Program-made: the position numbers and the translations under genes | Assembly (NCBI GenBank): GCA_030158285.1 | Contig: JAOATF010000017.1 | Span: 5,373 to 69,372 of the forward strand | Direction of reading: 5' to 3' | DNA from: Hyphomonadaceae bacterium | GTDB lineage: Bacteria; Pseudomonadota; Alphaproteobacteria; Caulobacterales; Hyphomonadaceae | Length of the DNA: 64,000 bases | Part shown: piece after piece, positions 38,690 through 53,781 of the stretch | Position numbering within the stretch: the stretch's first letter is position 1 | How the letters are laid out: each line of letters begins with the position of its first letter | Notes under the pieces: generated by a model | Told to the model about the DNA's origin: nothing | Seen by the model: the letters and a program-made list of their open reading frames with translations, nothing else | Database searches by the model: none

Positions 38690-39529
38690 ATGAGCACGAA
38701 AGCTGAGCGGTTTGGTCCGCTGCCGAGCACCGCGGTCCTTCCCGAGCCGGTCTACACGACGAACGCCCGCCGCTCGTCCTTCGTGTGCTCGCCGCCTGTG
38801 AAGCAGGGCGACACGGAATGGTATCCGCCCGTGATGATCGGCGCCGCCGCCATCGGCGGAGCGATCGCGCGTGATTGCGAAGTCTACATTCACCGCGCGC
38901 TCGATATCATGTCGCGGCTCGAGCCGGATGCCTACCTGCAGTACCTCAACGGCTATTATCGCGAAGGGTTGCGCCGCTTTGGACGCGACTGGGGCTATGC
39001 AGACATCGTCACGGCCGTTCTTGGCCTGTCGGAACGCCTGAAGCCGGAAAGCTATCTCGAGATTGGCGTGCGCCGCGGACGGAGCGTGTGTTCCGTGGCC
39101 AGCATCCGTCCCGACATCGACATCGCGATGTTCGACATGTGGGTCACCAACTATGCCGGCATGGACAATCCCGGTGAGACCCACGTCCGCGCGGAGCTCG
39201 ACAAGTTCGGCCACAAGGGCAAGCGCGAGTTCATCAATGGCAACTCGCACGTCACGTTGAAGAAGTACTTCGCGGACAATCCCAACGCCTATTTCGACAT
39301 GATCACCGTCGATGGCGACCATTCCAACCTGGGCGCCGCCGAGGATATTGCCGACGTGCTGCCGCGCCTGTCGATCGGCGGATGCGTGGTGTTCGACGAT
39401 ACCTGCAACCCCAACGTGGCGGGACTGAGCGAAGTCTGGCGCCGGATGGTCGGCGACAATCCGCGTTTTGCCGCCTACACGTATTCCGATGTCGGGTACG
39501 GCATCGGATTCGCAATCCGCAAATACTGA
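38690..39529 (+). CDS. Class I SAM-dependent methyltransferase (Methyltransf_24/CmcI-like)
   Basis: YLEIGVRRGRSV (motif I-like), FDMITVDGDHSNLGAAEDI, LSIGGCVVFDD. Paralogous to the C-terminal domain of the 43651-47439 product. Confidence 0.75.
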   Translation: MSTKAERFGPLPSTAVLPEPVYTTNARRSSFVCSPPVKQGDTEWYPPVMIGAAAIGGAIARDCEVYIHRALDIMSRLEPDAYLQYLNGYYREGLRRFGRDWGYADIVTAVLGLSERLKPESYLEIGVRRGRSVCSVASIRPDIDIAMFDMWVTNYAGMDNPGETHVRAELDKFGHKGKREFINGNSHVTLKKYFADNPNAYFDMITVDGDHSNLGAAEDIADVLPRLSIGGCVVFDDTCNPNVAGLSEVWRRMVGDNPRFAAYTYSDVGYGIGFAIRKY

Positions 39530-39537
39530 TCGCGGCG

Positions 39538-41223
39538 ATGTCGACGCTGACAGCGCCGCCGGCTTTTCCAGGCGCCAAGGCGCCTTTTGCGCCGGAAAAA
39601 AATTTCCCGAACTGGCCAGACCTTGTGGCCGCGTCCGGTGATGTCTGGAAGCAGGCGATCGCGCGCGCGCGTGGACCCAAGGTCCTGGTCTGCACCAATA
39701 CCGGCATGCACGGCGCCGTATCGACTTTCGACACGGTGCTTTCGGTCGGGCTCACCCTCGCGGGCGCACGGACATCGCGCGTGTTCTGCGATGGCATCAT
39801 GCCCGCCTGTCTGATGTCCACGTTTGGCGATGCGACACCGCCTGACATGATTGCTGACAGAGGGCTTGTCGCGCGGCTGTGCAAGGCGTGCCTCAACCGC
39901 GGCACGAACTCGGCCCGGCCTGTGGGCTTGCCCGAGCACAGGCTCTCGAGCTTCCTGAAGCGCGAGGATTACAAGGAAGCCGAGGCGCTTGCGGGGCGAA
40001 TTCCCGTTGCCGAAATCCGGTCATGGACGCTCGATGGCATCGCCGTTGGCGAGCATGCTTACGCCGGCGCGCTGCGCTACTTCGCGACGGGCGATCTGGT
40101 GGGGCAGGTGCGTGGCAAGGACGTCCTGCGGCGCTACCTCGAAGGCGCGATCCTCACGGCGCGCGCCTATGACAGGTTGATCGCCGCCGAACGGCCGGAC
40201 GTGGCTGTGCTCCATCATGGCATCTACAGTCCGCAGGGTGTGGCCGCCGAAGTGTGCCGAAAGCACGGCGTCCGGGTGGTGACCTGGGTCGTGGCCTACC
40301 GCAAGAACTGCTTCATTCTCAGCCACGACGACACCTATCACCACACGCTGATGACCGAGCCCGTCGAACAGTGGGAAGGTCTTGCCCTGTCCGAAGCGCA
40401 GACTTCGCTGGTCCACAGCTATCTCGCGAGCCGTGCGTCGGGCGGGCGCGACTGGATATATTTCCACAAGGATGCCGGACAGGATTTCGAGGCGCTTGCC
40501 TCAGCCAAAGGCATCGACCGCTCGAAGCCGGTGGTGAGCGCCTTCACGAACGTGGTGTGGGACGCCCAGCTTCACTATCCCGCCAACGTCTATTCCGGGA
40601 TGATCGAATGGCTGGTTGAAACCGTCCGGCATTTTGCGGCGCGCCCGGACATCGAGTTCGTCGTGCGAATCCATCCTGCTGAAACGCGCGGCGCGATCAA
40701 GTCACGGCAGCTCGCGGTCGATGAGATCGCAAAGGCATTTCCGAACCTGCCGCGCAACATCCACGTCATCGGGCCGGAAGAGGAGGCAAACTCCTATGCG
40801 CTGGCGAAGGCGAGCAATGCCACGATCATCTACGGCACAAAGATGGGCACGGAGCTCGCGCCGCTCGGCATTCCGGTCATCGTCGCCGGTGAAGCGTGGA
40901 TCAAGAACAAGGGCGTGACCCGCGACCCACGCGATCGCGCCGACTACCTGGCGCTACTGGACCAGCTGCCGATCGCTTCAGGCGCCTGGGCGCCGGATGT
41001 CGCGCGCGCGGAGAAGTATGCTTACCACTTCTTCTTCCGGCGCATGATCCCGCTGCCGTTCCTGGAGCCGAATGGCACCGGCGCCATGTTCGATCTCAAG
41101 GTCGACGCCTTGCAGGACCTGTCACCGGGGCGCTGGCCCGGGTTCGATGCGATCACGAACGGGATCCTGAATGGAGCACCGTTCGTCTATCGCGCCGAGG
41201 ATTTCGGCGTACACGACGCCTAG
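39538..41223 (+). CDS. Putative glycosyltransferase, paralogue B. Tentatively KpsS/KpsC (Capsule_synth)-like.
   Basis: See 31013-32755. Both share a Cys cluster (FCDGIMPAC...LCKACLNRG versus QCDAALSAC...FCSVCQSAG). Start taken at MSTLTAPP (39538); the ORF is open from 39382, overlapping the methyltransferase. Confidence 0.45.
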   Translation: MSTLTAPPAFPGAKAPFAPEKNFPNWPDLVAASGDVWKQAIARARGPKVLVCTNTGMHGAVSTFDTVLSVGLTLAGARTSRVFCDGIMPACLMSTFGDATPPDMIADRGLVARLCKACLNRGTNSARPVGLPEHRLSSFLKREDYKEAEALAGRIPVAEIRSWTLDGIAVGEHAYAGALRYFATGDLVGQVRGKDVLRRYLEGAILTARAYDRLIAAERPDVAVLHHGIYSPQGVAAEVCRKHGVRVVTWVVAYRKNCFILSHDDTYHHTLMTEPVEQWEGLALSEAQTSLVHSYLASRASGGRDWIYFHKDAGQDFEALASAKGIDRSKPVVSAFTNVVWDAQLHYPANVYSGMIEWLVETVRHFAARPDIEFVVRIHPAETRGAIKSRQLAVDEIAKAFPNLPRNIHVIGPEEEANSYALAKASNATIIYGTKMGTELAPLGIPVIVAGEAWIKNKGVTRDPRDRADYLALLDQLPIASGAWAPDVARAEKYAYHFFFRRMIPLPFLEPNGTGAMFDLKVDALQDLSPGRWPGFDAITNGILNGAPFVYRAEDFGVHDA

Positions 41224-41957
41224 GTCGACATCGGGGGCGCGGAATAGCCCGAGTGTTTCCAGACCGGATGATCATCGCGCACGAAGAACATGTGAAACTG
41301 CCACAGCACGTTGTCGCCCGGCCGGTGCAGGGGGTCGCATATGTCGATGCAGCGGAAGCCAAGCGACTTCATGTGAAGTGACATTTCGTCGAACGTCAGG
41401 TTCTTGCCGCCGACAAACTTCAGCTTGAAGTTGTAGACCTCCATCATGATCAGGGACGTGTTTTTCAGCGTTTCCGTGCATCCGGCCAGGATGTCGAGCT
41501 CGACGCCGTGCGTGTCGAACTTCAGGAAGTAAGGGCCGGGCAGGTCGAACTCGCGGACCAGGGTGTCGATCTTTTTTATGGGCGTGGCCTGAGAGTCCGC
41601 CGCCTTGTTCCCGGAATCGAGAAATCCGCCGACGTCGTTGCCCTTTCTGAAAAAGCCCTCGCCATCTTCCGGCCCTGCGGCGCAGACCGTCCCCTTGATG
41701 CGCGGGTTCTTGCGGGTGAGGTCGTTCCACACAGGCACGAAGCGCGAGTCGAGATCGATCAGCAGAGCGTGCATGCCCGGCCAGAACTGTTCGAAGAATG
41801 GTGCGTCGTCACCACGGCCGGAGCCAATCGCGACAAGACTCCCGACAGCAAGCAGCCCTTTCAAGCGCTGCATCGAAGCATTGACGGTCGCGATGTTGTC
41901 GCTGTTCGGCGGAGGAGGGACCGCGTTCTTTCTCGCTTTGGACCACGGCCAAGACAT
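41220..41957 (-). CDS. FkbM-family methyltransferase
   Basis: VAIGSGRGDDAPFF, ALLIDLDSRF, YFLKFDTHGVELDILAGC: layout typical of Methyltransf_21. Start taken at MSWPWSK (41957); the upstream part of the ORF is Arg/Ser-rich and implausible as coding. Confidence 0.7.
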   Translation of the reverse strand: MSWPWSKARKNAVPPPPNSDNIATVNASMQRLKGLLAVGSLVAIGSGRGDDAPFFEQFWPGMHALLIDLDSRFVPVWNDLTRKNPRIKGTVCAAGPEDGEGFFRKGNDVGGFLDSGNKAADSQATPIKKIDTLVREFDLPGPYFLKFDTHGVELDILAGCTETLKNTSLIMMEVYNFKLKFVGGKNLTFDEMSLHMKSLGFRCIDICDPLHRPGDNVLWQFHMFFVRDDHPVWKHSGYSAPPMST

Positions 41958-42036
41958 CGTCAAAGCATCCGCCTCTATGCGCCGGCCGCAGTTCTCACTC
42001 GCGCGCGTTTGGGACACCCAAGCGCCTGATCGAAAA

Positions 42037-43251
42037 CTATTGTCCCGGCAATGATCCCAAAACGCCCGAGGTGAGCTCTTCGCGCTCCCACACCGCCGAC
42101 TGTCGAACGAGCGCAGTCGCCCCGCGGTGCGCCAAGTCTTGTCGCAAGACGAGTGATTTAGCCAGTGCCTGAAGCTTGGCGACCGCATCATCCATTGAAG
42201 GTTCGGCCCAGCGCTGGCCGCTGCCATAGACGCCGGTTGGGTCGCCGACCGGCACAAGCCGAAAATCGATCAGCAGCGGGGACAGGTCCGCCATGAATTC
42301 CATGTTGCCGGACCAGCCTGTCGCAAGGGCAGGCGTGCCGACGAGGAATGCTTCGGCCAGCGCCAGTCCAAAACCCTCCGAGCGGTGGGGGGAAAGGAAC
42401 AGGTCTACCGATGCGATCAGCGAGAGCATATCGCTCTGGTCGAGCGGCTCCGTCAGCACCTTGACATCAAGGCGGCCTGACAGGCGCTCGCGCAGGTGCG
42501 CCAGCTGGCCGGAATCCGAAGCGAGCGTTTTCAATACCAGGGTCGCCTTGCTTCCCGGCTCCATGGCGCGCCGGACGATCTCCACCGCGCCATCGAGATT
42601 CTTGCGGGTCGTGCTGGAGCGGAAGTCAGACATGACCAGGATGGAAAGTCCGTCAGCCGGGAGGCCCCATCTCGCCTTGTCCGACGCCGGCCTGGCCGTG
42701 CCGATGTCGACGGGGTGGGGCATGATCTTCACGGGCGGGCGTACGCCACCGGCAATCAAGGCGTCGGCGATGAAGCGGCTTGGCGCCCAGATCTCGTGAA
42801 ACAGGTCCGCCGCGCGCCTCCAGCGATCGGGGACAACTGGCAGCTCCCATGCCCAGTAACCAATGCGCAATTTGTGCTTCCATGTATGCGCAGGCGTACG
42901 CGCGAGTACGCGCACGGCCTCGTCCGGGTTGCAGTGAAGGATCAAGGCGCCGCCTTCGCCGTGCTCGGACAGCGGCGCATGATTGCCGGCCAGCAAGTCG
43001 CGGACGTGTACGGATCGGGGCGCCAGTCCGGCTCGCTCAAGCGCCAGCAGAGTGAGATCGCCCGCCCGACCGAGGCCGGTTGGTTCGGTGAAGAAGCCGG
43101 AAACCATGAGCGGTCCGGGTGAGGGAATCACCGGCGCTGAACCAGCCTTGCGCCTGGCGACCAGCACCGCCCATTCGCTCAGCCCGCCGTACACAGCGCC
43201 GAACGCCTTTCGCCGCAACCCTTGCTGAAAGGTGATAGGCAGACGATGCAA
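42037..43251 (-). CDS. Glycosyltransferase family 1 (GT-B)
   Basis: LFLSPHRSEGFGLALAEAFLVGTPALATGWSGNMEF (E-x7-E-type signature). Confidence 0.8.
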   Translation of the reverse strand: MHRLPITFQQGLRRKAFGAVYGGLSEWAVLVARRKAGSAPVIPSPGPLMVSGFFTEPTGLGRAGDLTLLALERAGLAPRSVHVRDLLAGNHAPLSEHGEGGALILHCNPDEAVRVLARTPAHTWKHKLRIGYWAWELPVVPDRWRRAADLFHEIWAPSRFIADALIAGGVRPPVKIMPHPVDIGTARPASDKARWGLPADGLSILVMSDFRSSTTRKNLDGAVEIVRRAMEPGSKATLVLKTLASDSGQLAHLRERLSGRLDVKVLTEPLDQSDMLSLIASVDLFLSPHRSEGFGLALAEAFLVGTPALATGWSGNMEFMADLSPLLIDFRLVPVGDPTGVYGSGQRWAEPSMDDAVAKLQALAKSLVLRQDLAHRGATALVRQSAVWEREELTSGVLGSLPGQ

Positions 43252-43650: not shown

Positions 43651-46600
43651 ATGCGACGCCGGGCGCTTTTGCCGGGGTGCGCGAGCATGGTTGAGCCTCG
43701 CGCAGGACAAGAGCCAGGCGTTGCAGGCGGCAAGCCGATTGCGACCATGGGGTCGCGCGCCGGCGGCCTGTTGCGCTGGATTGTTTCACATGTCGCGCGC
43801 CGCCGCGCGGCCCAGCTGACGCTGGCTGTGCTGGTGATGTTCGTTGCAGCTGTCGTCGTTGCAGTGCTGGGGCCGTGGTCCGGAGAGCAGCGGATCATCT
43901 TTGCGACTGCCGCTGGATTCGTTTTCTTCGGCGGACTGGTTTTCTACCTCGCCTTTCGCTCCTGGGATCTTGCCACGCGGCTGTCGCACGATGCCGCCAA
44001 GGCGAGAGAAATGCTCGCGTCCTTGCAAACGGCTCTGGCTCTGCAGGATCAAAGGTCCGCAACGAGCATCGCGCAGAACGAGAAGCTGGACCATGAGCTG
44101 GGCCTGTTGTGGACCGAGCATGCCGGCGTTGTGGAAAGCTTGAGGGCGACGACGCGGCGGTCGCTGCAGACAAGCGCGCGCCTTGACAAGGCTGCGACCA
44201 CGCTGGGGCTGCTCGATACCCGGGCCAGCGGCATTGATCACGTCAGGGCCCGGGTCGCGGCGCTTGCGCACCGTCAGGCATCGCTGACGGGCGCTCAGGC
44301 AACGCTTGCAGGTCGCGTGGAAGCGGTCACGAAGAATGCGGAGCTTGCGTCCGTGGCGCTTCGCGACATCCGCGGTCAGCAATCCGGTTATGTTCAGGGT
44401 CTGGGCGCTACCAACGCCCAGCTGCTCGATGTCGCCTCCAGGTTTGAAGCCCTTGCGACGATGCTTGAGCAGTGCAGGGGGCAAGTCGCGCAACAGTCTG
44501 TCGGCCAGGCAGCGTTGACAGACGCCGTTGCCGAGCTGCGTGCGATGGCTGGAGCCCTGACAAGCAGGAACGCCAGGAGCGATGCCGCTATCGAGGCGTG
44601 GAGCGCGAAACTCACAGCTGCAACGCGAGAGCAAACCGCCCTGGGCGCAGGTGTCGCCAGGCTGCAGGTCCAGCTGGGCGACATGACGAACCTTCAAGGC
44701 GCGTCGATTTCCGGCTTGACCGAAGTTGTCTCCCGCGTTGCCTCGATCGAGGGCGCCTTTGAACAGGCGCGCGTCTCGGCCGCCGAGCAGTTTGGCGAGG
44801 TCAGTCGGCGAGCCATCTCCATCGAAACGCTGACGCTGTCGGTCCAGGACCGGCTGCTGTCCGACATCGACCGCGCTGTTTCGCTGCTCAACGCGCGAGA
44901 TGCCGCAATCGCGGACGCCTCTGCAATTCTCGATCAGCGGCTTTCGCGCGTCGAGACCGGCATTTCCATTGTCGCCGAACAAGGCGAACTCCCGCTCGTG
45001 CGCATCGGAGAACTCGAAGACCGATTGACGCAAGTGACCGTGTCCAACTTGACCGCGCTTGATGACCTCTCGGCCCATGTCACGTCGCTGAAGGAGCTGG
45101 CGCGTTCCGAGGCGGGGCGCGTCGTCGAGTTGTCGGCGGTCCTGAAAGCGCTTGGCGACTCCGTCTCGGGGTCTTTGCGGGCCTTGGGCGGACAGACAAC
45201 GTCCTTGGAGCAAGGGCTCCAGACCTTATTCCGGCAGATGGACGCGTCTGTGGCAGCATCAGGCCAATCGATGGGCGAGATGGCCGGAAAGCTGGCCACG
45301 CTGGAGCAGGCCTTTGGACATGAATCCGCGCGTGTCGGTGGACTTGTGCAGGCCGTTGTCGAGCTCCGCCAGGGCGTGGAGTCGGCCGGCGCCGACAACG
45401 TCGCCGCAGTCGGCATGATCAACGCGGACATTGCCGCGCTGCTGCAACGGGTCTCAACCTCGTCCGAGGCCCACGCCGCCCACCAGCAGGAGCTGACGCA
45501 ACGGCTGGACCGCCTGCAGGCAAGCAGCCATGCTGAGGGCGAGGCGGCGATCAGACAACTTCGTGACGAGCTGTCCGCCGTCGGGCGCCGGCATCTGGAA
45601 GCTGCGGCTGCGCACGGGGCAGGCCTTGCTGCGCTGGAGGAGCAATCCAGGGATCACATCCTGTCTCTCGAACATGTTCATCGCGCGATCGCGTTCAGCC
45701 AGGATCGCACGGAGATGATTTCGGAACAGATCGGTGAGCTGCAGGGGGCGATCGAAAGCGCCGCTGTGTCGGGAGACGAGGTGTTCGAAGGCCTTGGACA
45801 GCGCATCGACGATCTCAAGCAGCAGCTTGCAGACTCCGTGTCCACCGCCCGCGACGAGCGGGAAGGTGTGGCGGGGCAGCTGGGCGCCCTTCGCAGCCTG
45901 GTCGAGGATACGACGTCTGCGGGGAACGAGGCGGTTCAAGGGGTCAGCCGGCGGATTGACGATCTTGTTCCGAAGGTCGCCGAAAGCGTCACGCTCTCCC
46001 GGCATGTGCAGGAGAAACTGTCCGCGCAGCTGGCCGAACTCCGTGAGGGGACAGGGGCCGAGAAGCGCCGGATCGATGACCTGAAAACCGAACTCGCAAC
46101 TCTGGCCGATCGCCTTGCAGCCGCCGGCGCCACTGTGGAAACGCTTGCTGCTGCCTGGCCAGCGCAGATTGAACAGCTCAAGGCCAGCCTTCCGGATGGC
46201 GCCAAGGCGGCCAAGGCTGCGGCATTGCTGGATACGCTCGAGAAATCGGCTCGTGCGAGCGAGGCCGAAATCGACGTGGTGAAGAAGGGGCTGTCCGAGC
46301 TTTCGCGCAATTTCGGTGCGACCGCGACGTCGTCGCGGCAGGTGATCGAGCAGTTGTCCGATCAGTTCACGTCGCTGCGCGAGGCGATGACGGGAGAGTT
46401 CGGGCGCGTCGGCGGCCTGACATCGCGCCTTGCGTCACTCGAAGGCGCCTTTGAAGGTGCAAGCCGCACGTCCGACCAGGAACTCGCACGCGCCCGGGAC
46501 GGTCTCGAGGATCTGTCCAGCCGGCTTTCGGAAGCGGCTTCAAGCATCGAAGCGCGCCTGTCGGAGCTGACATCAAAGGTATTTGCTGCGGCCGACCTCG

Positions 46601-47439
46601 CCGAGGAAACGGATCGCCGGCAAGTGCTCGATGGCGCGAACTGGTACGAGCCGAACAACCGGAAACTGCGGCACGATCACGTCGAGCGCATCGAGGCTGA
46701 ATGGACGCGCAAGCTGTCGCTGGACATCTCGCGTTCGACCATCGGCTACATGACCACGCACATTGCCACGCTCGAACGCGAGCTGGACGGCAGGCTGCGG
46801 GCCTCGATCGAGGACACGCTGTTGCGGACGCTGGTCGCCAGATCGGTCAAGGGGGCCAGGCTCCGCGTGCTTGAACTGGGCGCTTCCTTTGGCGTTGAAA
46901 CCGCGGTGATGCATGACCAGCTGAAGGATCACTTCGCCGACGTCGGCTTCACCATCCTCGATCCGCTCGATGCCGTGGCGCACGATGTACGCTCGGACCG
47001 CCAGACCGGGCTGCCGGTAAGCGAGCGCATCGTCCGCCGCAACCTTGCGCGCGTCGGGCTGCAGGACAAGCAGGCGACCCTGATCAAGCAGTCGGCCACC
47101 GATCTTGAAGCGGTCGAACAGGCATCCGCCGGCGCCTACGATGTGCTCATCATCGATGCGGATCATTCCTATGCCGGCGTGAAGGCCTGCTTCGAGAACT
47201 ACGGCCGCATGGTCCGGCTTGGCGGCTATATCATCTTCGCCGAGTACGGGTCGCCGGAATGGCCGGATGTCCAGGCTTTCGTTGATGCCGAAGTCGGGAC
47301 GGCCAGCCATGTGTCGCCGGTCGGGACCAGCTGGCGCACGGCCGTCTATCGCGTCGTGAAGGTCGAGAAGGCGCCGCCGGCGCGTGCTGCCGCGCCGGCC
47401 GCCGCAAAGCCGGCCGCGGCGCGACGCCGCAAGAAGTAG
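43651..47439 (+). CDS. Giant membrane-anchored coiled-coil protein with a C-terminal class I SAM-methyltransferase domain
   Basis: Basic N-terminus followed by two hydrophobic helices (LTLAVLVMFVAAVVVAVLGPW; IIFATAAGFVFFGGLVFYLAF). Then ~880 aa of Pro-poor A/L/E/R/Q/S-rich sequence with recurring motifs (RIDDL x3, RVGGL x2, IEGAFE/LEGAFE). The last ~230 aa carry VLELGASFGVE, VLIIDADHSYAGV, GGYIIFAEY. K/R/A/P tail. Possible starts at 43651, 43687 and 43747. Confidence 0.75.
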   Translation: MRRRALLPGCASMVEPRAGQEPGVAGGKPIATMGSRAGGLLRWIVSHVARRRAAQLTLAVLVMFVAAVVVAVLGPWSGEQRIIFATAAGFVFFGGLVFYLAFRSWDLATRLSHDAAKAREMLASLQTALALQDQRSATSIAQNEKLDHELGLLWTEHAGVVESLRATTRRSLQTSARLDKAATTLGLLDTRASGIDHVRARVAALAHRQASLTGAQATLAGRVEAVTKNAELASVALRDIRGQQSGYVQGLGATNAQLLDVASRFEALATMLEQCRGQVAQQSVGQAALTDAVAELRAMAGALTSRNARSDAAIEAWSAKLTAATREQTALGAGVARLQVQLGDMTNLQGASISGLTEVVSRVASIEGAFEQARVSAAEQFGEVSRRAISIETLTLSVQDRLLSDIDRAVSLLNARDAAIADASAILDQRLSRVETGISIVAEQGELPLVRIGELEDRLTQVTVSNLTALDDLSAHVTSLKELARSEAGRVVELSAVLKALGDSVSGSLRALGGQTTSLEQGLQTLFRQMDASVAASGQSMGEMAGKLATLEQAFGHESARVGGLVQAVVELRQGVESAGADNVAAVGMINADIAALLQRVSTSSEAHAAHQQELTQRLDRLQASSHAEGEAAIRQLRDELSAVGRRHLEAAAAHGAGLAALEEQSRDHILSLEHVHRAIAFSQDRTEMISEQIGELQGAIESAAVSGDEVFEGLGQRIDDLKQQLADSVSTARDEREGVAGQLGALRSLVEDTTSAGNEAVQGVSRRIDDLVPKVAESVTLSRHVQEKLSAQLAELREGTGAEKRRIDDLKTELATLADRLAAAGATVETLAAAWPAQIEQLKASLPDGAKAAKAAALLDTLEKSARASEAEIDVVKKGLSELSRNFGATATSSRQVIEQLSDQFTSLREAMTGEFGRVGGLTSRLASLEGAFEGASRTSDQELARARDGLEDLSSRLSEAASSIEARLSELTSKVFAAADLAEETDRRQVLDGANWYEPNNRKLRHDHVERIEAEWTRKLSLDISRSTIGYMTTHIATLERELDGRLRASIEDTLLRTLVARSVKGARLRVLELGASFGVETAVMHDQLKDHFADVGFTILDPLDAVAHDVRSDRQTGLPVSERIVRRNLARVGLQDKQATLIKQSATDLEAVEQASAGAYDVLIIDADHSYAGVKACFENYGRMVRLGGYIIFAEYGSPEWPDVQAFVDAEVGTASHVSPVGTSWRTAVYRVVKVEKAPPARAAAPAAAKPAAARRRKK

Positions 47440-47599: not shown

Positions 47600-48553
47600 T
47601 TGGACGGGCAGGCTATCGTGAAGTATGACTGCCCATCGTCAGCTGACGCGCCGCAGCCTGCCGCTACAGAGAGACCGCCTTTGACGAGTCAGAGTACCCA
47701 GAATGGCCTCCGGGTTGTTTCGACTGCGGCCCGGGCGGCGGCGGATATCGCCAAAAATCCATCTGAACCCATGCCCGCGGGCCATGCGCTGGTCGGGCGG
47801 CGGGCGCCGCTGGCGATCCAGGTCAAGGACTGCGTTCTCAAATATCCCATCGGCGCCCATGCGCGCGGTAGTCTCAAATCGGCTGTGATGGGCCTGTTCG
47901 GCCATCGCGAGCGTACGCCGACCGCGCAATACGTCGATGCGCTCCGGGGCATCAATCTCCAGATCCAGCAGGGTGAGCGCGTTGCGCTGATCGGCCATAA
48001 CGGTTCGGGCAAGTCGACGCTGCTGCGCGCGATGGCGGGCGTCTATCCGCTTGCCTCCGGCGATATCCACGTGTCCGGACGGATCGGTACGCTGCTGGAG
48101 CTTGGCGTCGGCTTCGAGGACGAGGCCACCGGGCGCGAGAATATCTACTATCGCGGAATGGCGATGGGCTATTCGCGCAAGCTTCTGGCGAAGCACGAGC
48201 GGGAGATCGTGGAGTTCTGCGGTCTCGGCGATTTCATCGACCTGCCGGTGCGCACCTATTCCGCCGGCATGTATGTTCGGCTCGCCTTTGCGATCTCGAC
48301 CCAGTTCTCGCCCGAAGTGCTTCTGGTCGATGAGGTCTTCGGGGCGGGCGACGCCGTCTTCGCCGAGCGCGCGGTGCAGCGCATGATGCGCATCGTGAAC
48401 GACGCCGGCATTTTCGTTCTCGCCACGCACGACGTGAATCTGGTCAGCCGCGTGTGCAGCCGGGCTGTCTGGCTGTCCTCGGGCCACATCCTGGCCGATG
48501 GGCCCGTCGAGACCGTGATTCCGGAATTCACTGCGCGAATGTCTGGACGCTGA
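47600..48553 (+). CDS. wzt: Polysaccharide-export ABC transporter ATP-binding protein (Wzt/KpsT/TagH-type), no C-terminal carbohydrate-binding domain
   Basis: Walker A GHNGSGKSTLL, signature YSAGMYVRLAFA, Walker B VLLVDEVFGAGD. The protein ends ~20 aa after the H-loop region. Start uncertain (TTG 47600 or ATG 47771). Confidence 0.85.
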   Translation: MDGQAIVKYDCPSSADAPQPAATERPPLTSQSTQNGLRVVSTAARAAADIAKNPSEPMPAGHALVGRRAPLAIQVKDCVLKYPIGAHARGSLKSAVMGLFGHRERTPTAQYVDALRGINLQIQQGERVALIGHNGSGKSTLLRAMAGVYPLASGDIHVSGRIGTLLELGVGFEDEATGRENIYYRGMAMGYSRKLLAKHEREIVEFCGLGDFIDLPVRTYSAGMYVRLAFAISTQFSPEVLLVDEVFGAGDAVFAERAVQRMMRIVNDAGIFVLATHDVNLVSRVCSRAVWLSSGHILADGPVETVIPEFTARMSGR

Positions 48554-48582: not shown

Positions 48583-49410
48583 ATGTCCTACGTGAATGTC
48601 CAGGATCGCAGGCTGCCGTTCGCGCTTCGATACGCTGCGGACTTCCTGTCCTATCGTCATCTCTGCTGGAACCTCGTGGGGTCGGCCCTCCGGGCGCGCT
48701 TTCGCCGGACGCAGCTTGGCATTCTCTGGGCAACGCTTCAGCCGCTCGCCTTTTCCCTGATGATCGCCACCGTCTGGGCCGGGCTGCGCAACAAGGAATC
48801 CGTGTGGGAGTTTGCCGCTTACGTCTTCACGGGCACGGTGGCCTTCGAACTCTTCAGCACGTCGGTCCAGAACGGGCAGGACGCCCTGATGTCCGCGTCA
48901 GGCTTCATTCGCCAGGCGCGCATCCCTTTCCTCATCTTCCAGCTGAGGGTGGTGCTGACATCGCTCGTGATGTTCATGTGCGCGCTGGTTGGCGTCCTGC
49001 TGGTGACGGCAATCGTCACCCATGGCGCAAACCTTGGGCCGGCGCTCATGCTGGTCCCGGTCTTCATGGGGATAGCAGCGCTGTTCATGCTGCCCATCGT
49101 CATCATCATGTCGATCGTCGGCGCGCTCTATCGCGACGTGAAATACATCTCCATGCTCGGGGAGCGCGCCCTGTTCCTGGTGTCGCCGGTCATGCTTCCG
49201 CGCGACGTCCTCGAGCAACCCCATCTGCAGATCCTCGAAGTCCTGAACCCGCTCGTCCCGTTTCTGGATCTGTTTCGCGATCCCGTCCTCTACGGCAACT
49301 TCTGGGAAGCGCGGGACGTGATTGCGATGTTCGTCTGGATCGCGGCGCTCTGGGCTCTGGCGATCTTTGCGTCCATGTCGGTAGGCCGCAAGATCGTGTT
49401 CGCCATCTGA
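48583..49410 (+). CDS. wzm: ABC-2-type polysaccharide-export permease
   Basis: Six hydrophobic helices; N-terminal YRHLCWNLVGSALRARFRRTQLGILWATLQPL is typical of ABC2_membrane permeases. GAGGCGG RBS upstream of ATG 48583. Confidence 0.85.
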   Translation: MSYVNVQDRRLPFALRYAADFLSYRHLCWNLVGSALRARFRRTQLGILWATLQPLAFSLMIATVWAGLRNKESVWEFAAYVFTGTVAFELFSTSVQNGQDALMSASGFIRQARIPFLIFQLRVVLTSLVMFMCALVGVLLVTAIVTHGANLGPALMLVPVFMGIAALFMLPIVIIMSIVGALYRDVKYISMLGERALFLVSPVMLPRDVLEQPHLQILEVLNPLVPFLDLFRDPVLYGNFWEARDVIAMFVWIAALWALAIFASMSVGRKIVFAI

Positions 49411-49535: not shown

Positions 49536-50762
49536 TTGTCTGTCTTTGTACTTGGCGCCCTGTTTGTGCTCTGGCCGCTGGTGTCGCTGGCGGGCGGCCT
49601 CGCTTTTTCGTCTCTCACGGGGCTCGCGGCGCTGCTCCTGCTGCCCTCCGTCGTCCGGACGCTTCGCCCGCGTCCTTACTTCCTCGCCCTCCTGGCGTTT
49701 TTCATCTTCGCTGGCGTCTCGATGCTGTGGTCGCCGCGCGAGCAGGTGCTGGTCAGCATCGACCTCGACAAGATGCAGTTCGCCATCCGCAGCGAGATGC
49801 TGCGCGTCGGCCTTCAGATCCTTGCGCTGGGTGGCCTGATCGCCGCCGCCATGCGAATGAGCGAACGCGACAAGGCGCGGCTGCAGGCGATTGCACAGGT
49901 CGCCCTGCTGGTTCAGCTGGGCATGCTGGTCGTGCTCACCGTGTTCGAGCTCCAGATCCTTGACATGCTGCGCCCGATTGTGCCGGACACGGGCGAGGGG
50001 GTTCAGAACATCTCGCGCAACTGCCTGATCATGGCGGTGGCTGCCCCGTCGCTGGCGATTGGTCTCGCGCGCGGAAAGCCGCCAGCGATTGCATGGGCGC
50101 TTGCCGCCGGCGTGATCGGCACAATCGTTGTGATCCTGGTGGTGCGAGGCGTCCACGCTGGCCTGCTGGCCATCGCGGCGGCGGGTGTCTGTGTCGCGCT
50201 CGTGCATGTCCTGCCCAGGCACGGGTTCAAGATCCTTGGCGCTCTGATCGCACTGATGGTGCTGACGGCGCCGCTGATATTCGGGTTCCTGTCGCAAGGC
50301 GCGGACTTTGCGACGGCTGACGATTCATCGTCCTACCGGGCCGCGATCTGGCAGCGTGTGATCGAGCTGATCAATCAGCATCCGATCCTCGGCAACGGCC
50401 TCGGCGCGCTGCGCACCGTGCGCGAGCCGATTGAATCCGGCGTCTTCGCCGGGCAGTTCACCGTCCCCAACCACGCCCACAACATGACGCTGCAACTCTG
50501 GGCCGAAGTCGGGGCGGTGGGGGCAGGGTTGATGGCGCTCGCCCTCGTGCTGGCGGGCTGGCGACTGGGCGATGCACGCCGGCTCGGCTCTGCCGGGCTC
50601 AGGGGCGCGGCGATTGCCGGCGCCATGACCGCCGTGGCCGGCGTTTCCTTCGATCTGTGGAACGACTGGTGGTGGGCCGTCGCTGGATTGATGGCGGTGC
50701 TGGCTGTGGCGACGCCCGCACGCAGCGCGCCGCAGGCGGGCGATGCGAATGCCGTCGTCTGA
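49536..50762 (+). CDS. O-antigen ligase / Wzy_C-family polytopic membrane protein
   Basis: About 10-12 TM helices. A periplasmic loop carries SSYRAAIWQRVIELINQHPILGNGLGA...HAHNMTLQLWAEVGAVG (H-x-N-x2-L-x3-E-x-G signature). TTG start. Confidence 0.7.
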   Translation: MSVFVLGALFVLWPLVSLAGGLAFSSLTGLAALLLLPSVVRTLRPRPYFLALLAFFIFAGVSMLWSPREQVLVSIDLDKMQFAIRSEMLRVGLQILALGGLIAAAMRMSERDKARLQAIAQVALLVQLGMLVVLTVFELQILDMLRPIVPDTGEGVQNISRNCLIMAVAAPSLAIGLARGKPPAIAWALAAGVIGTIVVILVVRGVHAGLLAIAAAGVCVALVHVLPRHGFKILGALIALMVLTAPLIFGFLSQGADFATADDSSSYRAAIWQRVIELINQHPILGNGLGALRTVREPIESGVFAGQFTVPNHAHNMTLQLWAEVGAVGAGLMALALVLAGWRLGDARRLGSAGLRGAAIAGAMTAVAGVSFDLWNDWWWAVAGLMAVLAVATPARSAPQAGDANAVV

Positions 50763-51814: not shown

Positions 51815-52225
51815 TCAGGCGTACGTATAGTATTTGTGCAGGAAATAGCTGGAGATCGCCGGCGCGCCGACGCCGAACAGGTGGGCGACCTCGAACATGT
51901 GCCACTCCCAGCCGATGGCCGGCAGCACCAGCCGCGCCATGATCGAGCTGACAGCCCAGGCCAGCGTCGCGCCGAAGATGTTCACCCAGATGAAGCGCAC
52001 CACGCGCTTGCCCTCGATGCCGCCGCCTCCGAACAGCATCTTCTGGAACAGGAAGAAGCCCACCACCATGCCGACCATGTAGGCCAGCACGACAGCCACC
52101 TCGAACGGCATCACGAAGTCGAGCAGGTAGCGCGCAACCAGGTTGGCCAGCGCGGCGATCCCGCCCACGCCAAGGAAGCGCAGGAATTCCCAGAACCCTC
52201 CGCCTGACTTGATCGCCGCCATCAT
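51815..52225 (-). CDS. GtrA-family small membrane protein (second copy)
   Basis: FLRFLGVGGIAALANLVARYLL plus three further helices; 136 aa. The ATG overlaps the upstream TGA (ATGA). Confidence 0.8.
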   Translation of the reverse strand: MMAAIKSGGGFWEFLRFLGVGGIAALANLVARYLLDFVMPFEVAVVLAYMVGMVVGFFLFQKMLFGGGGIEGKRVVRFIWVNIFGATLAWAVSSIMARLVLPAIGWEWHMFEVAHLFGVGAPAISSYFLHKYYTYA

Positions 52226-53781
52226 GGGGTCCCACCGGGAGGATGCAGTCCGAACAGCTGGTTGATGTTCAGGAGATTCGCCGAACCTTCCGGCAACATT
52301 GCCGCTGCGCCAAAAGCCAGCGCCAGCAGGCCACCGATTGCAAGGCTCTGCGGATCCTTGAACGCGAACACCACCGGATCATCGTCCAGCTGGCCGCGAT
52401 TGGCCAGCAGCCACACGCGCATCATCCACATTGTCAGCGCGATCGGGGCGATCCACAGCGCTTCCGGCGTCGAGAAAACGCCCGACGGAACGGCGTAATC
52501 CATGATGTAGAGCACCAGGATCAGCGGGGTGGCGGTGGCCGTCGCAAGGCCCAGCCCCAGCGTGATCGTTGCATCTTCCGCGCGATAGCCGCGATTGGCG
52601 ATGCGCCGCTCGCCGTTGGCGGTCCGCCGCAGCACCTCGGTATGTCGTTTCGCCAGCGACAGCGACACGAACAGGAACATCGAGAACACCATCAGCCAGT
52701 GGCTGAGCGCCACGCCCGCCAGCACCGCGCCCATGATCAGCCGCAGCGTGTAGAGGAAGCTGAGCGTCAGTGTATCGACGAGCGCTGCGCGCTTGAGCAG
52801 GAAGGAATAGGCCAGTGTGGTGACGAGATACGACAGCATCGTAACGCCGAACGCCGGCGACAGCAGGAAGCCGCCCGCCAATCCGCCCAGGATCAGCACG
52901 GGCGCGGCCACAAAACCCTGCCACAGCTTCAGCCGGCCAGACGCAAACGGCCGCCGCTTCTTCGAGGGGTGACCACGATCGGCCGCCAAGTCGACAAGAT
53001 CGTTGAGGATGTAGGTGCCCGACGCCATCATGCCGAGCAGAGGCAGGGCGATCAGCAAGGTCAGCAGTGTCGCCACATTGGCGATCTGCATCGCCATGAT
53101 CGCCGGCACGAAGATCAGGACGTTCTTCGACCACTGGTGCAACCGCAGCGCCTTGCGCCACGCGCCAATCCCGCGCTTCGGTCGCTGGAATTTCTGCGCC
53201 ACCTTGATGCCGGCGCGTTCGACGCCCACGGCGCTCACCGGCCCGCCTTCAACGACAGAGGCGGCCTTGGCCTTGCGCCAGACTTTCATGTCGGCGCGGC
53301 TGTCACCGATGTATTCGAAGCCCTGCGGCGCCGCCTTCTCGAGGAAGGCCGCCTTGGCATGGCCCTTGTTGTTGGTCTTGCCATCGCTGCCGACCGCGCG
53401 GTCGAACACACCGAAGCGCGCTGCAGCTTCTTCCACGATGCCCTGGTCGGACGCAGAGACCAGCCACACCTGCCGCCCCGCCGCGCGTTCGCGCCGGCAG
53501 TAGTCGACAACGTCGTCGTTCGCCGGCAGGCTCGCCATGTCGAGGTTCGCGCGCGACTGCACGCGCGCCTTCACCTTGGCCAGCGCAAACGGCAGCTGCA
53601 GCATCTGCCACAACGCCCACAACGGACGCCTGCGGAGATGCTCCGCCAGTCCCTCGAACAAGGTATCCGTCAGCAGCAGCGTGCCATCGAGATCGACAGC
53701 CAGAAGCGTCTTCTGGTCGCTGTCCGCAGTGCCCTGCGCCTGCGCGTCATTGGCGGCGCGCGCGATGAATGGCTGGCTCAC
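52222..53781 (-). CDS. Fusion of a HAD-superfamily phosphatase domain with a UbiA-family polyprenyl-phosphate phosphoribosyltransferase (DPPR-synthase-like) domain
   Basis: HAD motif I is LLAVDLDGTLLLTD, with later YIGDSRADM. The UbiA half carries YILNDLVDLAADRGHPSKKRRPFASGRL, which matches the NDxxDxxxD...HPxKxxRPxAxG signature I recall for mycobacterial Rv3806c, plus ~8 TM helices. Confidence 0.7.
   Translation of the reverse strand: MSQPFIARAANDAQAQGTADSDQKTLLAVDLDGTLLLTDTLFEGLAEHLRRRPLWALWQMLQLPFALAKVKARVQSRANLDMASLPANDDVVDYCRRERAAGRQVWLVSASDQGIVEEAAARFGVFDRAVGSDGKTNNKGHAKAAFLEKAAPQGFEYIGDSRADMKVWRKAKAASVVEGGPVSAVGVERAGIKVAQKFQRPKRGIGAWRKALRLHQWSKNVLIFVPAIMAMQIANVATLLTLLIALPLLGMMASGTYILNDLVDLAADRGHPSKKRRPFASGRLKLWQGFVAAPVLILGGLAGGFLLSPAFGVTMLSYLVTTLAYSFLLKRAALVDTLTLSFLYTLRLIMGAVLAGVALSHWLMVFSMFLFVSLSLAKRHTEVLRRTANGERRIANRGYRAEDATITLGLGLATATATPLILVLYIMDYAVPSGVFSTPEALWIAPIALTMWMMRVWLLANRGQLDDDPVVFAFKDPQSLAIGGLLALAFGAAAMLPEGSANLLNINQLFGLHPPGGTP

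What the first reader, a model, noticed from the sequence alone, without database searches (positions are those of the whole stretch)
43651..47439. Giant membrane-anchored coiled coil ending in a SAM-methyltransferase, directly upstream of wzt/wzm: candidate oversized, inverted WbdD-like ruler/terminator
Seen in sequence. This is a 1262-aa ORF with a basic N-terminus and two TM helices, which puts the C-terminus back in the cytoplasm. About 880 aa follow that are Pro-poor and A/L/E/R/Q/S-rich, with internally recurring motifs: RIDDL three times about 40-50 aa apart, RVGGL twice, and IEGAFE/LEGAFE. A ~230-aa class I methyltransferase domain comes next (VLELGASFGVE, LIIDADHSYAGV, GGYIIFAEY), then a K/R-rich tail. 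The next genes downstream are an ABC exporter pair and a WaaL-family protein.

Established knowledge. In ABC-transporter-dependent O-polysaccharide assembly, E. coli O9a WbdD (methyltransferase/kinase plus coiled coil) and Klebsiella O12 WbbB (beta-Kdo transferase plus coiled coil) terminate the chain. Their coiled coil acts as a ruler for chain length.

Inference. This protein could play the same role with three differences. The domain order is reversed (membrane anchor at the N-terminus, enzyme at the C-terminus). The anchor is transmembrane rather than an amphipathic helix. The coil is far longer: at ~0.15 nm per residue, 880 aa would span on the order of 100 nm if continuous. I do not know of a described terminator with this architecture.
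Basis: partly seen in the sequence, partly recalled or inferred. Interest (0 to 1): 0.85.

Follow-up and report, generated by a model that had tools for sequence, protein, structure and literature searches.

The report
Giant membrane-anchored coiled-coil glycan methyltransferase
This gene encodes a very long helical rod anchored in the cell membrane and tipped with a sugar-methylating enzyme; it belongs to a widespread, apparently undescribed family that probably sets the length of surface polysaccharide chains, and this copy is an unusual extreme member.

Summary
The ORF at 43651-47439 has a TM hairpin, about 885 proline-poor residues with strong heptad periodicity, a C-terminal Methyltransf_24 domain and a basic tail. 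It lies directly upstream of wzt, wzm and a ligase-like gene.

The C-terminal module defines a family: 949 cluster representatives at E<=1e-3 and 312 at E<=1e-30. The layout is fixed: TM hairpin, then a near proline-free spacer of 25-1012 aa (median 159; ours 887), then the methyltransferase at the C-terminus. About two thirds of members are fused behind GT2, FkbM or MptE-like modules.

The AlphaFold model (pLDDT 90) most resembles sugar O-methyltransferases such as MeT1, NovP, MycF and SpnH. Of 42 genomic loci, 23 have Wzt within 10 kb, and 17 of those carry a Wzt carbohydrate-binding module.

This supports an inverted, TM-anchored version of the WbdD/WbbB ruler-terminator principle.

For this protein there are caveats:
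- One of three predicted Mg ligands is lost (FAEY instead of FDDY).
- Its Wzt has no binding module.
- The coil is predicted as 15 helices with breaks, so a rigid rod of about 100 nm is unproven.
- All long-coil members carry a polybasic tail of unknown role.

Verdict: a new variant of a known kind.

The parts
43651..47439 (+). Whole ORF, 1262 aa from the first ATG. Alternative starts are Met13 at 43687 and Met33 at 43747 (the public gene call, 1230 aa).
43651..43800 (+). N-terminal cytoplasmic segment. It is Arg-rich just before TM1 (..HVARRRAAQ) and contains the family-conserved aromatic F/L-x-x-W motif (LLRW).
   Evidence: topology by the positive-inside rule is an inference
43801..43959 (+). 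Transmembrane hairpin: TM1 at about aa 51-75, a short periplasmic loop (PWSGEQR), and TM2 at about aa 83-103 ending in a conserved Tyr. Both ends are inferred to be cytoplasmic.
   Evidence: Kyte-Doolittle; family median hairpin span 54 aa
43960..46617 (+). Spacer, aa 104-989, with 0.5% Pro and heptad periodicity. It is predicted about 94% helical in 15 helices of 20-131 residues. Its last ~130 residues (..EIDVVKKGLSELSR..REAMTGEFGRVGGL..) are the best-conserved part among close relatives.
46618..47358 (+). C-terminal methyltransferase module, aa 990-1236. It has a three-helix extension before the Rossmann fold (family-conserved N-R-x-L ... W ... GRL) followed by the Rossmann core. Motifs: motif I LELGASFG (1074-1081), DPLD (1104-1107), DADH (1169-1172), and FAEY (1196-1199) where the family has FDDY.
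47359..47436 (+). Polybasic Pro/Ala-rich tail, KVEKAPPARAAAPAAAKPAAARRRKK (net +8).
47618..48553 (+). wzt: ABC ATPase of 311-317 aa with no C-terminal carbohydrate-binding module.
48583..49410 (+). wzm: ABC-2 permease.
49536..50762 (+). Wzy_C / O-antigen-ligase-family membrane protein.
42037..43251 (-). Divergently transcribed GT4 glycosyltransferase. It holds this position in all three close relatives' loci.
41220..42257 (-). FkbM-family methyltransferase (gene aa). In most fused relatives this enzyme class is fused upstream of the TM hairpin.
38690..39529 (+). A second, stand-alone Methyltransf_24 protein (279 aa) in the same locus.

Best explanation
The protein is an extreme member of an uncharacterised family of membrane-tethered, spacer-mounted sugar O-methyltransferases. 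The family works in ABC-transporter-dependent (Wzm/Wzt) polysaccharide assembly.

Proposed mechanism (inferred):
1. A TM hairpin fixes the protein in the inner membrane with both ends in the cytoplasm.
2. A homo-oligomeric alpha-helical coiled-coil spacer holds the C-terminal SAM-dependent O-methyltransferase away from the membrane.
3. At the membrane, glycosyltransferases elongate the undecaprenyl-linked glycan.
4. Only chains long enough to reach the distal module are modified at their non-reducing end. That stops elongation and fixes chain length.

This is the WbdD/WbbB ruler-terminator principle with the domain order inverted and a true TM anchor. In this locus the 887-aa spacer predicts an unusually long product.

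Shown: the architecture, the heptad signal, the fold class, the family and its genomic associations.
Inferred: terminal (rather than internal) methylation, oligomeric state, extension of the coil, and the effect on chain length.
For: 1. Architecture: TM hairpin, Pro-poor heptad spacer (z = 13.8) and a Methyltransf_24 domain above the gathering score.

2. Family:
- 949 representatives at E<=1e-3 and 312 at <=1e-30, with the module always flush with the C-terminus.
- In 125 of 152 proteins analysed, a TM hairpin (median span 54 aa) is followed by a spacer with median 0% Pro.
- Spacer length runs from 25 to 1012 aa (median 159, 90th percentile 519).
- The catalytic module is conserved (62-73% identity among close relatives) while the spacer drifts (28-36%) and changes length (696-979 aa).

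3. Fold: the AF2 model has pLDDT 90.4.
- Best PDB matches are MeT1 (E 4e-10, TM 0.6-0.7), then NovP, MycF, MycE, SpnH, SpnK and CalS11.
- MeT1 blocks one end of methylmannose oligosaccharides (PMC9883506).

4. Link to glycan polymerisation:
- 86 of the 125 proteins with a hairpin are fused behind large N-terminal regions.
- Of 24 scanned, FkbM occurs in 20, MptE-like in 17 and GT2 in 15.
- In P0050 the MptE-like+FkbM protein is the upstream neighbour.

5. Link to Wzm/Wzt:
- The order GT4 <- -> giant -> wzt -> wzm is conserved in three relatives at 38-46% identity.
- 23 of 42 reference-genome loci have Wzt within 10 kb.
- 17 of these have a Wzt C-terminal CBM.
- 10 of 10 tested have an adjacent Wzm.
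- A CBM on Wzt marks systems where export depends on a capped chain end (own knowledge of the E. coli O9a model; the role of terminators is in PMC11231755).

6. No terminator-like hairpin lies between the gene and wzt.

7. A clean 70-aa indel (two 35-aa repeats, 10 heptads) between P0002 and P0003 is in heptad phase.
Against: - No experimental data exist for any family member.
- In this protein and its three closest relatives, the family's FDDY is FAEY or FAAY. By alignment with MycF (D189/D216/D217), one of three Mg ligands is lost. It is conserved in 141 of 147 members.
- The adjacent Wzt lacks a CBM, and none was found elsewhere in the window.
- AF2 on the whole cytoplasmic part is low-confidence (pLDDT 50). 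It breaks the spacer into 15 helices, so the effective span could be anywhere from about 20 to 120 nm.
- Length variation among close relatives is concentrated in the middle of the spacer. That pattern would also suit a folded-back hairpin.
- Some family members have spacers of only 25-40 aa, too short to measure anything.
- The locus has two other methyltransferases and a separate sulfotransferase-plus-coil candidate.
- Neighbouring enzymes match the fused domains only at class level.
Confidence: 0.5

Rival explanations
1. The protein is a scaffold-mounted modifying enzyme, not a ruler. The module O-methylates internal residues of the repeat unit, or an early lipid-linked intermediate. The TM hairpin and coil only recruit it and partner glycosyltransferases into the assembly complex. 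Chain length is set by coupling between polymerisation and export, as in CBM-less Wzt systems.
For: - Wzt here, and in all close and sister loci, has no CBM.
- The locus carries three methyltransferases.
- Family members with 25-40-aa spacers cannot act as rulers.
- The conserved last ~130 aa of the spacer could be a docking site.
Against: - An 887-aa Pro-free heptad spacer is costly for mere recruitment.
- Spacer length is the most variable trait in the family while the architecture is fixed.
- 17 other family loci do have a CBM-bearing Wzt.
Confidence: 0.22
2. In the long-coil subfamily the methyltransferase module has become a pseudo-enzyme or binding module. The protein then acts as a very long membrane-anchored tether or scaffold. 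Its polybasic tail binds a polyanion: the acidic glycan, anionic lipid or nucleic acid.
For: - Six of nine proteins with spacers >= 650 aa have disrupted DD metal ligands (AE, AE, AE, AA+H->Q, GG, DG+GADR), against 5 of 138 others. This represents at least three lineages.
- All nine have tails of net +6 to +17, against 0 of 35 with spacers <100 aa.
- Wzt is CBM-less throughout this subfamily.
- The locus encodes NulO, Kdo and sulfate functions, so the glycan is probably acidic.
Against: - The module remains the most conserved part of the protein (62-73% identity).
- SAM-motif residues, D1169, D1171 and H1172 are intact, and E1198 could still bind metal.
- P0005, P0006 and P0009 have long spacers with intact DD.
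- The correlations are not corrected for phylogeny.
Confidence: 0.15
3. The real chain terminator for this Wzm/Wzt pair is the classically ordered sulfotransferase-like-plus-coiled-coil protein at 19754-21262 (-). The giant serves another glycan or another step.
For: - That protein has a PAPS-loop-like HIPKTAGTS motif and a weak Sulfotransfer_2 hit.
- It has a coil of about 110 aa, the size of known rulers.
- It lies next to a sulfotransferase-GT2 fusion.
- Only one wzm/wzt pair was found in the 64-kb window.
Against: - It lies 26 kb from wzt/wzm, whereas the giant is immediately upstream and syntenic with wzt/wzm in three relatives.
- The sulfotransferase hit is below the gathering score.
- The two roles are not mutually exclusive.
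Confidence: 0.08
4. The protein is unrelated to glycan assembly. It is a generic membrane-anchored coiled-coil protein (EzrA- or SMC-like) with a small-molecule or protein methyltransferase.
For: Weak SMC, Rad50 and EzrA profile hits over the spacer.
Against: - Those hits are far below the cut-offs and typical of any coiled coil.
- Synteny, fusions to GT2/FkbM, and the sugar-O-methyltransferase fold all point to glycans.
Confidence: 0.03

Closest known systems
WbdD (E. coli O9a/O8; Klebsiella pneumoniae O3/O5): chain-terminating methyltransferase(-kinase) on a coiled-coil ruler
   Same: - A SAM-dependent methyltransferase sits at the membrane-distal end of an alpha-helical coiled coil.
- The other end is at the inner membrane.
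- It is encoded in a Wzm/Wzt O-polysaccharide locus.
- The polymerising glycosyltransferases act at the membrane (PMC11231755).
   Different: - The order is inverted: anchor at the N-terminus, enzyme at the C-terminus.
- The anchor is a TM hairpin instead of an amphipathic helix.
- The methyltransferase belongs to a different family (Methyltransf_24/TylF-like, metal-dependent type) and there is no kinase. Pfam shows no hit to other methyltransferase or kinase families.
- The spacer is 887 aa. From my own recollection, WbdD's is roughly 130 aa.
- The partner Wzt has no CBM.
WbbB (K. pneumoniae O12) and ORF6 (K. pneumoniae O7): single polypeptides with terminator, coiled coil and polymerase GT modules
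   Same: The fused relatives of this family (for example P0006, P0009, P0019) also put GT2 polymerase-type modules and a terminator-type module on one chain, separated by a coil (PMC11231755).
   Different: - In the described proteins the terminator is N-terminal and the GTs are C-terminal. Here the GTs, MptE-like and FkbM modules are N-terminal, then the TM hairpin, coil and methyltransferase.
- Our protein is the unfused form.
- No TM segment is described for WbbB or ORF6.
MeT1 (Mycobacterium hassiacum) and TylF-family sugar O-methyltransferases (NovP, MycF, SpnH, CalS11)
   Same: - These are the best structural matches to the C-terminal module.
- They are weak but consistent sequence and profile matches.
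- The family consensus IDGDH...FDDY aligns with the MycF Mg site.
- MeT1 caps one end of a polysaccharide (PMC9883506).
   Different: - They are small soluble enzymes with no TM segment or coil.
- Identity is 15-20%.
- Our protein has A1197/E1198 at the DD ligand positions.
- It has a family-specific three-helix N-terminal extension.
N-terminally anchored long helical membrane proteins such as EzrA
   Same: An N-terminal membrane anchor is followed by hundreds of helical residues with breaks. There is a weak EzrA profile hit.
   Different: - The score is far below the cut-off (14 vs 39.6 bits).
- EzrA has one TM segment, no enzyme domain and a cell-division context.
- It is relevant only as a reminder that segmented helices can form arches rather than rods.

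Membership tests
Coiled-coil ruler/terminator proteins of ABC-transporter-dependent glycan assembly (functional class: WbdD, WbbB, ORF7-O4, ORF6-O7) | A chain-capping catalytic module at the membrane-distal end of the coil | tested here: inconclusive
   - A sugar-O-methyltransferase-fold module is at the end opposite the TM anchor.
- SAM motif residues are kept, but one predicted metal ligand is lost (A1197).
- Capping activity itself cannot be tested here.
Coiled-coil ruler/terminator proteins of ABC-transporter-dependent glycan assembly | An extended coiled coil separating the terminator from the membrane and polymerase | tested here: inconclusive
   - The heptad periodicity is strong (z = 13.8), Pro is 0.5%, and the region is about 94% helical in AF2.
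- However, AF2 gives 15 segments with breaks, at low confidence.
- Oligomeric state and extension are unknown.
Coiled-coil ruler/terminator proteins of ABC-transporter-dependent glycan assembly | Membrane association at the polymerase-proximal end | tested here: met
   Two hydrophobic segments form a hairpin at the N-terminus. This is by prediction only.
Coiled-coil ruler/terminator proteins of ABC-transporter-dependent glycan assembly | Encoded with wzm/wzt and glycosyltransferases | tested here: met
Coiled-coil ruler/terminator proteins of ABC-transporter-dependent glycan assembly | A partner Wzt carrying a carbohydrate-binding module that reads the cap (E. coli O9a-type systems) | tested here: not met
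   - Wzt is 311-317 aa and has no Wzt_C.
- A family-derived CBM HMM finds nothing in the window or in L002.
- The feature is met in 17 other family loci.
Coiled-coil ruler/terminator proteins of ABC-transporter-dependent glycan assembly | Coil length determines glycan modal length | not testable with these tools
   This needs genetics and LPS gels.
WbdD protein family (homology) | A WbdD-type N-terminal methyltransferase (+/- kinase) domain and a C-terminal amphipathic helix | tested here: not met
   - The only methyltransferase families hit are Methyltransf_24, TylF and CmcI.
- There is no kinase hit.
- The domain order is reversed.
Pfam Methyltransf_24 (PF13578) | Score above the gathering threshold | tested here: met
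   36.9 bits against 26.3, over aa 1074-1196.
TylF/MycF-type Mg-dependent sugar O-methyltransferases | Class I Rossmann fold similar to solved members | tested here: met
   Foldseek E 2e-7 to 1e-6 to NovP, MycF and SpnH. The Pfam TylF hit is E 1.4e-3, below the cut-off.
TylF/MycF-type Mg-dependent sugar O-methyltransferases | A complete Asp triad for Mg (MycF D189, D216, D217) | tested here: not met
   D1169 is present, A1197 replaces the second ligand, and E1198 replaces the third. The assignment of ligands in MycF is from my own knowledge.
The family defined here (TM hairpin - spacer - C-terminal MT24 module) | A C-terminal module with the pre-Rossmann extension, conserved E-x-G-x-x-F-G, DPL, DxDH and WP, flush with the C-terminus | tested here: met
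   The protein is 52-73% identical to the closest representatives, with full-length module alignment.
The family defined here (TM hairpin - spacer - C-terminal MT24 module) | A TM hairpin upstream, joined by a Pro-poor spacer | tested here: met

The most novel reading that the evidence does not exclude
The long-coil subfamility reading: this protein, P0002-P0006, P0009, P0014 and P0050 may no longer be simple terminators. They share spacers of 650-1012 aa, a polybasic tail of net +6 to +17, a frequently degraded metal site and a CBM-less Wzt. This package would fit a roughly 100-nm membrane-anchored tether whose methyltransferase-like head and cationic tail capture the end of an acidic (nonulosonate-, Kdo- or sulfate-bearing) polymer, or another polyanion. 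That would be a cap-independent way to measure or hand over very long chains, or a scaffold function unrelated to methylation.
Probability: 0.15. Interest if true: 0.8.

Novelty: new variant of a known kind. Interest (0 to 1): 0.62.

Why it matters
Every experimentally defined ruler-terminator has the enzyme at the N-terminus and peripheral membrane association (PMC11231755). This family would show that the same physical principle evolved with the opposite polarity, an integral TM anchor and a different methyltransferase family.

- **A natural length series.** Spacers run from 25 to 1012 residues, and some members are in cultured bacteria (Hyphomonas chukchiensis, Stappia spp., Amphiplicatus). 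The ruler hypothesis could be tested by simple correlation with O-antigen modal length.
- **Annotation.** These proteins are currently unnamed or labelled 'FkbM family methyltransferase'. The result gives them an annotation.
- **A puzzle subgroup.** The giant subfamily (polybasic tail, altered metal site, no CBM on Wzt) raises the question of how very long chains are terminated and recognised without a cap reader.

Tried and rejected
- **Full-length homology search.** It found only itself and one relative, because the coil dominates the word index. The C-terminal module alone opened up the family.
- **Exact-sequence look-up of the 1262-aa ORF.** It failed because the public call starts at Met33.
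- **Heptad phase of indels.** I tested whether indels among the four close relatives preserve heptad phase. Only the 70-aa P0002/P0003 indel is clean. The others lie in poorly aligned stretches and show no mod-7 preference, so the test is inconclusive.
- **AF2 of aa 101-1262.** pLDDT was 50, so the tertiary arrangement is unusable and I used only the secondary structure. I did not run a fold search on it.
- **Specific orthology between our neighbouring genes and the fused giants.** Only class-level GT2/FkbM similarity was found.
- **Detached CBM.** I looked in the window and in the ~1010-aa unknown protein next to Wzt in sister strains, using an HMM and hhalign. Nothing was found.
- **DNA tandem repeats and protein self-similarity in the coil.** None were found.
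- **Promoter scan.** There was no sigma-70-like site upstream. This is uninformative for an alphaproteobacterium.
- **Literature.** I found no description of this architecture in the held library. Mann et al. 2019 (Glycobiology 29:822) and Hagelueken et al. 2015 could not be read, so prior mention there cannot be excluded.
- **P. aeruginosa CPA methyltransferases PA5457/PA5459.** They are small, without coil or anchor, and are not comparable.
- **SMC, Rad50 and EzrA hits.** I rejected these as generic coiled-coil noise.

Full report
**1. Observation**

The ORF at 43651-47439 (+) is open for 1262 codons. A public gene call of the identical sequence starts at Met33, giving 1230 aa (P0001). Close relatives align best if the start is Met13.

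- Two hydrophobic segments lie at aa ~51-102.
- The central 885 aa contain only four prolines and are A/L/S/E/R/Q-rich.
- RIDDL occurs three times (718, 768, 807), RVGGL twice and EGAFE twice.
- The methyltransferase motifs are at 1073, 1167 and 1191.
- The tail is basic.

The central region has a very strong 3.5-residue hydrophobic periodicity. Its z-score is 13.8 against composition-matched shuffles, and 6.7 to 11 in the closest relative, depending on the exact boundaries. The C-terminal domain has none. Heptad register is kept over runs of up to ~180 residues.

A 5-mer occurring three times is unlikely by chance (P ~ 0.016). There is no long internal duplication and no DNA tandem repeat.

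Pfam gives one hit above its cut-off, Methyltransf_24 at aa 1074-1196, plus sub-threshold TylF and CmcI hits. The SMC, Rad50 and EzrA matches are far below their cut-offs and are generic coiled-coil noise.

**2. Surroundings**

The whole 64-kb window is a glycan-biosynthesis region of uniform G+C, about 64%.

The genes upstream of the giant are:
- a NeuB-type nonulosonate synthase
- GT2, GT1 and GT4 transferases
- a hexapeptide acyltransferase
- a stand-alone Methyltransf_24 protein
- an FkbM methyltransferase
- two weakly Capsule_synth-like (KpsC/S-like) proteins

The genes downstream are:
- Wzt, Wzm and a Wzy_C/ligase-family protein
- an acyltransferase and GtrA
- a UbiA+HAD fusion and ManC
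- further on, KpsF and KdsB

The left half of the window holds:
- an RTX-repeat protein
- dTDP-rhamnose-type and GDP-mannose-derived (perosamine- or fucose-type) sugar genes
- a CMP-sugar synthetase
- a sulfotransferase-GT2 fusion

Wzt is only 311-317 aa and has no C-terminal carbohydrate-binding module. No terminator-like hairpin separates the giant gene from wzt.

The organism is an uncultured alphaproteobacterium. A fructose-6-phosphate aldolase with about 100% BLASTP identity carries the label 'MAG: Novosphingobium sp.'. The named relatives, at 87-92% identity, are Hyphomonadaceae and Parvularculaceae MAGs.

**3. Relatives**

A full-length search of 5.8 billion proteins found only itself and one 44%-identical, 1337-aa metagenomic protein. 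That protein has the same gene order: a divergent GT4, the giant, wzt, then wzm.

An exhaustive HMMER search with aa 990-1262 alone changed the picture. It returned 949 cluster representatives at E<=1e-3 and 312 at <=1e-30. The module is always at the extreme C-terminus, and total lengths run from ~270 to 2775 aa.

I analysed 152 sequences:
- 125 show a TM hairpin (median span 54 aa) upstream of the module.
- A spacer with a median of 0% proline and a heptad signal joins the two.
- Spacer length runs continuously from 25 to 1012 aa, with median 159 and 90th percentile 519.
- Ours, at 887 aa, is among the nine longest.
- 39 proteins are stand-alone like ours.
- 86 carry the hairpin-spacer-methyltransferase unit behind a large, proline-normal N-terminal region.

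Among 24 of the fused proteins, FkbM occurs in 20, MptE-like/DUF115 in 17 and GT2 in 15. In P0050 (stand-alone, spacer 886 aa) an MptE-like+FkbM protein is the gene immediately upstream. Our own neighbours resemble the fused domains only at the level of enzyme class.

**4. Genomic association of the family**

A scan of GTDB species representatives found family members in several groups:
- Hyphomonadaceae (Hyphomonas, Henriciella, Litorimonas, Hellea), Stappia, Terricaulis and Amphiplicatus
- Cyanobacteria, Chloroflexota, Desulfobacterota and Planctomycetota
- some Gammaproteobacteria

Of 42 loci with a true family member, 23 have a Wzt-like ATPase within the available 10-kb flanks, and many of the others are truncated contigs.
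- In 17 loci, Wzt carries a C-terminal carbohydrate-binding module. Pfam Wzt_C matched in 10 of 10 tested: four above the gathering score and the rest at E<=3e-5. A family-derived HMM then found the remaining loci.
- In 10 of 10 tested, an ABC-2 permease is adjacent.
- In L031, wzm, wzt and a 2333-aa fused family member are contiguous.

The literature treats an extended coiled coil on a terminator protein as the marker of this assembly strategy. [quoted passage not shown] All of those have the enzyme N-terminal and the membrane or GT end C-terminal (PMC11231755).

**5. The catalytic module**

The AF2 prediction, built on a 30-sequence alignment, is confident (pLDDT 90.4, pTM 0.87). It shows a Rossmann core preceded by three helices.

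Foldseek against the PDB ranks M. hassiacum MeT1 first (E 4e-10, TM 0.58-0.71). After it come CsFAOMT2 (a caffeoyl-CoA-type O-methyltransferase) and then NovP, MycF, MycE, SpnK, CalS11 and SpnH. Nearly all of these are sugar O-methyltransferases. MeT1 methylates the free 1-OH of methylmannose oligosaccharides, so it blocks one chain end (PMC9883506).

Profile alignment puts the family's IDGDH...FDDY onto MycF's DGD...DDY. By my own knowledge of MycF, these are the Mg ligands D189, D216 and D217.

Across 147 family modules, the SAM-motif residues, the DxDH motif and the DD pair are each conserved in 137-147 members. Our protein keeps E1075, G1077, G1081, D1104, D1169, D1171 and H1172, but has A1197 and E1198 in place of DD. 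Its three closest relatives have AE, AE and AA.

Catalytic competence of this particular clade is nevertheless uncertain.

**6. The spacer**

AF2 on aa 101-1262 with four sequences is low-confidence (pLDDT 50.5). Its secondary structure has 15 helices of 20-131 residues covering ~94% of aa 102-984, separated by breaks of 4-12 residues.
- If all helices were collinear, the span would be about 120 nm (805 helical residues at ~0.15 nm each; my arithmetic).
- If they pack back on each other, it could be as little as ~20 nm.

Among the four close relatives the spacer is 28-36% identical, against 62-73% for the module, and varies from 696 to 979 aa. Most length change lies in the middle of the spacer. 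That fits a parallel coil that tolerates insertions, but also a hairpin with a variable apex.

The one clean indel is 70 aa (two 35-aa repeats, ten heptads) between P0002 and P0003. It is in heptad phase and has no compensating indel of similar size.

**7. A distinct long-coil subfamily**

The nine proteins with spacers >= 650 aa share three traits:
- All have a polybasic, Pro/Ala-rich tail of 21-46 aa with few or no acidic residues and net charge +6 to +17. None of the 35 proteins with spacers <100 aa has one. Spearman rho is 0.38, not corrected for phylogeny.
- Six of the nine have a disrupted DD pair, against 5 of 138 others. This represents at least three lineages.
- Wherever context is known, Wzt is CBM-less: the window, L002, L064 and L066-L068.

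Three related genomes carry fused giants in loci that also contain a CBM-less wzt and wzm. These are P0014 and P0009, whose inferred aldolase is 97-98% identical to ours, and P0006 at 88%. I inferred the link by matching contig lengths. The proteins are 2685-2775 aa, with spacers of 659-1012 aa. I have no tested explanation for this package.

**8. Mechanism and verdict**

The best-supported reading has two parts.
- The family consists of membrane-tethered, spacer-mounted sugar O-methyltransferases of Wzm/Wzt-dependent glycan assembly.
- They work like WbdD and WbbB: the polymerase acts at the membrane and a chain-end-modifying enzyme sits at a set distance from it.

The differences are inverted polarity, a TM hairpin and a TylF-like methyltransferase. 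I found no description of this architecture in the accessible literature. The main bioinformatic survey (Mann et al. 2019) was not readable.

For the protein in this window the ruler-terminator role is plausible but not secure, at about 0.5. The reasons are the altered metal site, the missing CBM, the unknown geometry of the spacer, the polybasic tail, and a second terminator-like candidate in the window (sulfotransferase-like plus coil, 19754-21262).

Novelty: a new variant of a known kind. Interest is moderate to high. The natural 40-fold spacer series makes the ruler idea directly testable, and the giant subfamily may do something different.

Noticed in passing
window 19754-21262 (-): A 502-aa protein with a sulfotransferase-like N-terminus (HIPKTAGTS loop; Pfam Sulfotransfer_2 E 5e-4, below the cut-off), a coiled coil of about 110 aa (aa ~300-415) and an acidic, Pro-rich tail. 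This is the classical terminator order, enzyme then coil. It is a second chain-terminator candidate in a window where I found only one wzm/wzt pair.
   Followed up: partly
window 16921-19704 (+): A 927-aa fusion of a sulfotransferase domain and a GT2 domain, next to the sulfotransferase-plus-coil gene. It suggests a sulfated glycan.
   Followed up: no
window 156-3560 (+): A 1134-aa RTX-repeat protein (HemolysinCabind, five matched stretches) at the edge of the glycan region. It is possibly an RsaA-like S-layer or secreted protein. Caulobacter-type S-layers are anchored on an O-antigen of defined length (own knowledge). The link to the giant ruler is untested.
   Followed up: no
family-wide; in the window aa 1237-1262 = 47359-47436: A polybasic Pro/Ala-rich C-terminal tail is present in all nine family members with spacers >= 650 aa and in none of the 35 with spacers < 100 aa. 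Its function is unknown. Candidates are binding to membrane, acidic glycan or nucleic acid.
   Followed up: partly
window aa 1197-1198 (47239-47244); P0002, P0003, P0004, P0014, P0050: The DD pair, predicted Mg ligands by alignment with MycF, is replaced (AE, AA, GG, DG) almost only in long-spacer members of the family.
   Followed up: partly
L066 23785-26820; L067 23540-26569; L068 18295-21303: A conserved globular protein of about 1010 aa with no Pfam hit lies immediately upstream of wzt/wzm in three related genomes. I found no homologue in our window and no detectable relation to the Wzt CBM.
   Followed up: partly
L066 5496-9914 and 22994-23788: Large (1472 aa) and small (264 aa) proteins share an N-terminal 'GNGPSLRG ... 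GxDxxY' MptE-like/DUF115-type region. They are possibly nonulosonate or Kdo transferases. The Pfam hit is weak (E 1e-3) for the large one only.
   Followed up: no
window 31013-32797 (-) and 39382-41223 (+): Two paralogous proteins of about 560-610 aa have only weak Capsule_synth (KpsC/KpsS-like) matches. They are candidate Kdo or nonulosonate transferases, consistent with NeuB, a CMP-sugar synthetase, KpsF and KdsB elsewhere in the window.
   Followed up: no
window 51815-53781 (-): A GtrA-like small membrane protein lies next to a UbiA-prenyltransferase+HAD fusion. From its abstract alone, this resembles the 'three-component' systems for extracytoplasmic pentofuranose addition (PMC11127046). 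The neighbouring Wzy_C-family protein might therefore not be a simple WaaL ligase.
   Followed up: no
window 42037-43251 (-) and its counterparts in L002 and L064: The divergently transcribed GT4 scores best against Pfam 'GT4-conflict' (PF20706, 52 bits), a family described from conflict systems. It is probably just a GT4 subfamily, but it is conserved next to the giant in all close relatives.
   Followed up: no
window 43651 / 43687 / 43747: There are three in-frame ATG candidates for the start. The public call uses the third. Relatives have ~20 extra N-terminal residues, which fit the second.
   Followed up: partly
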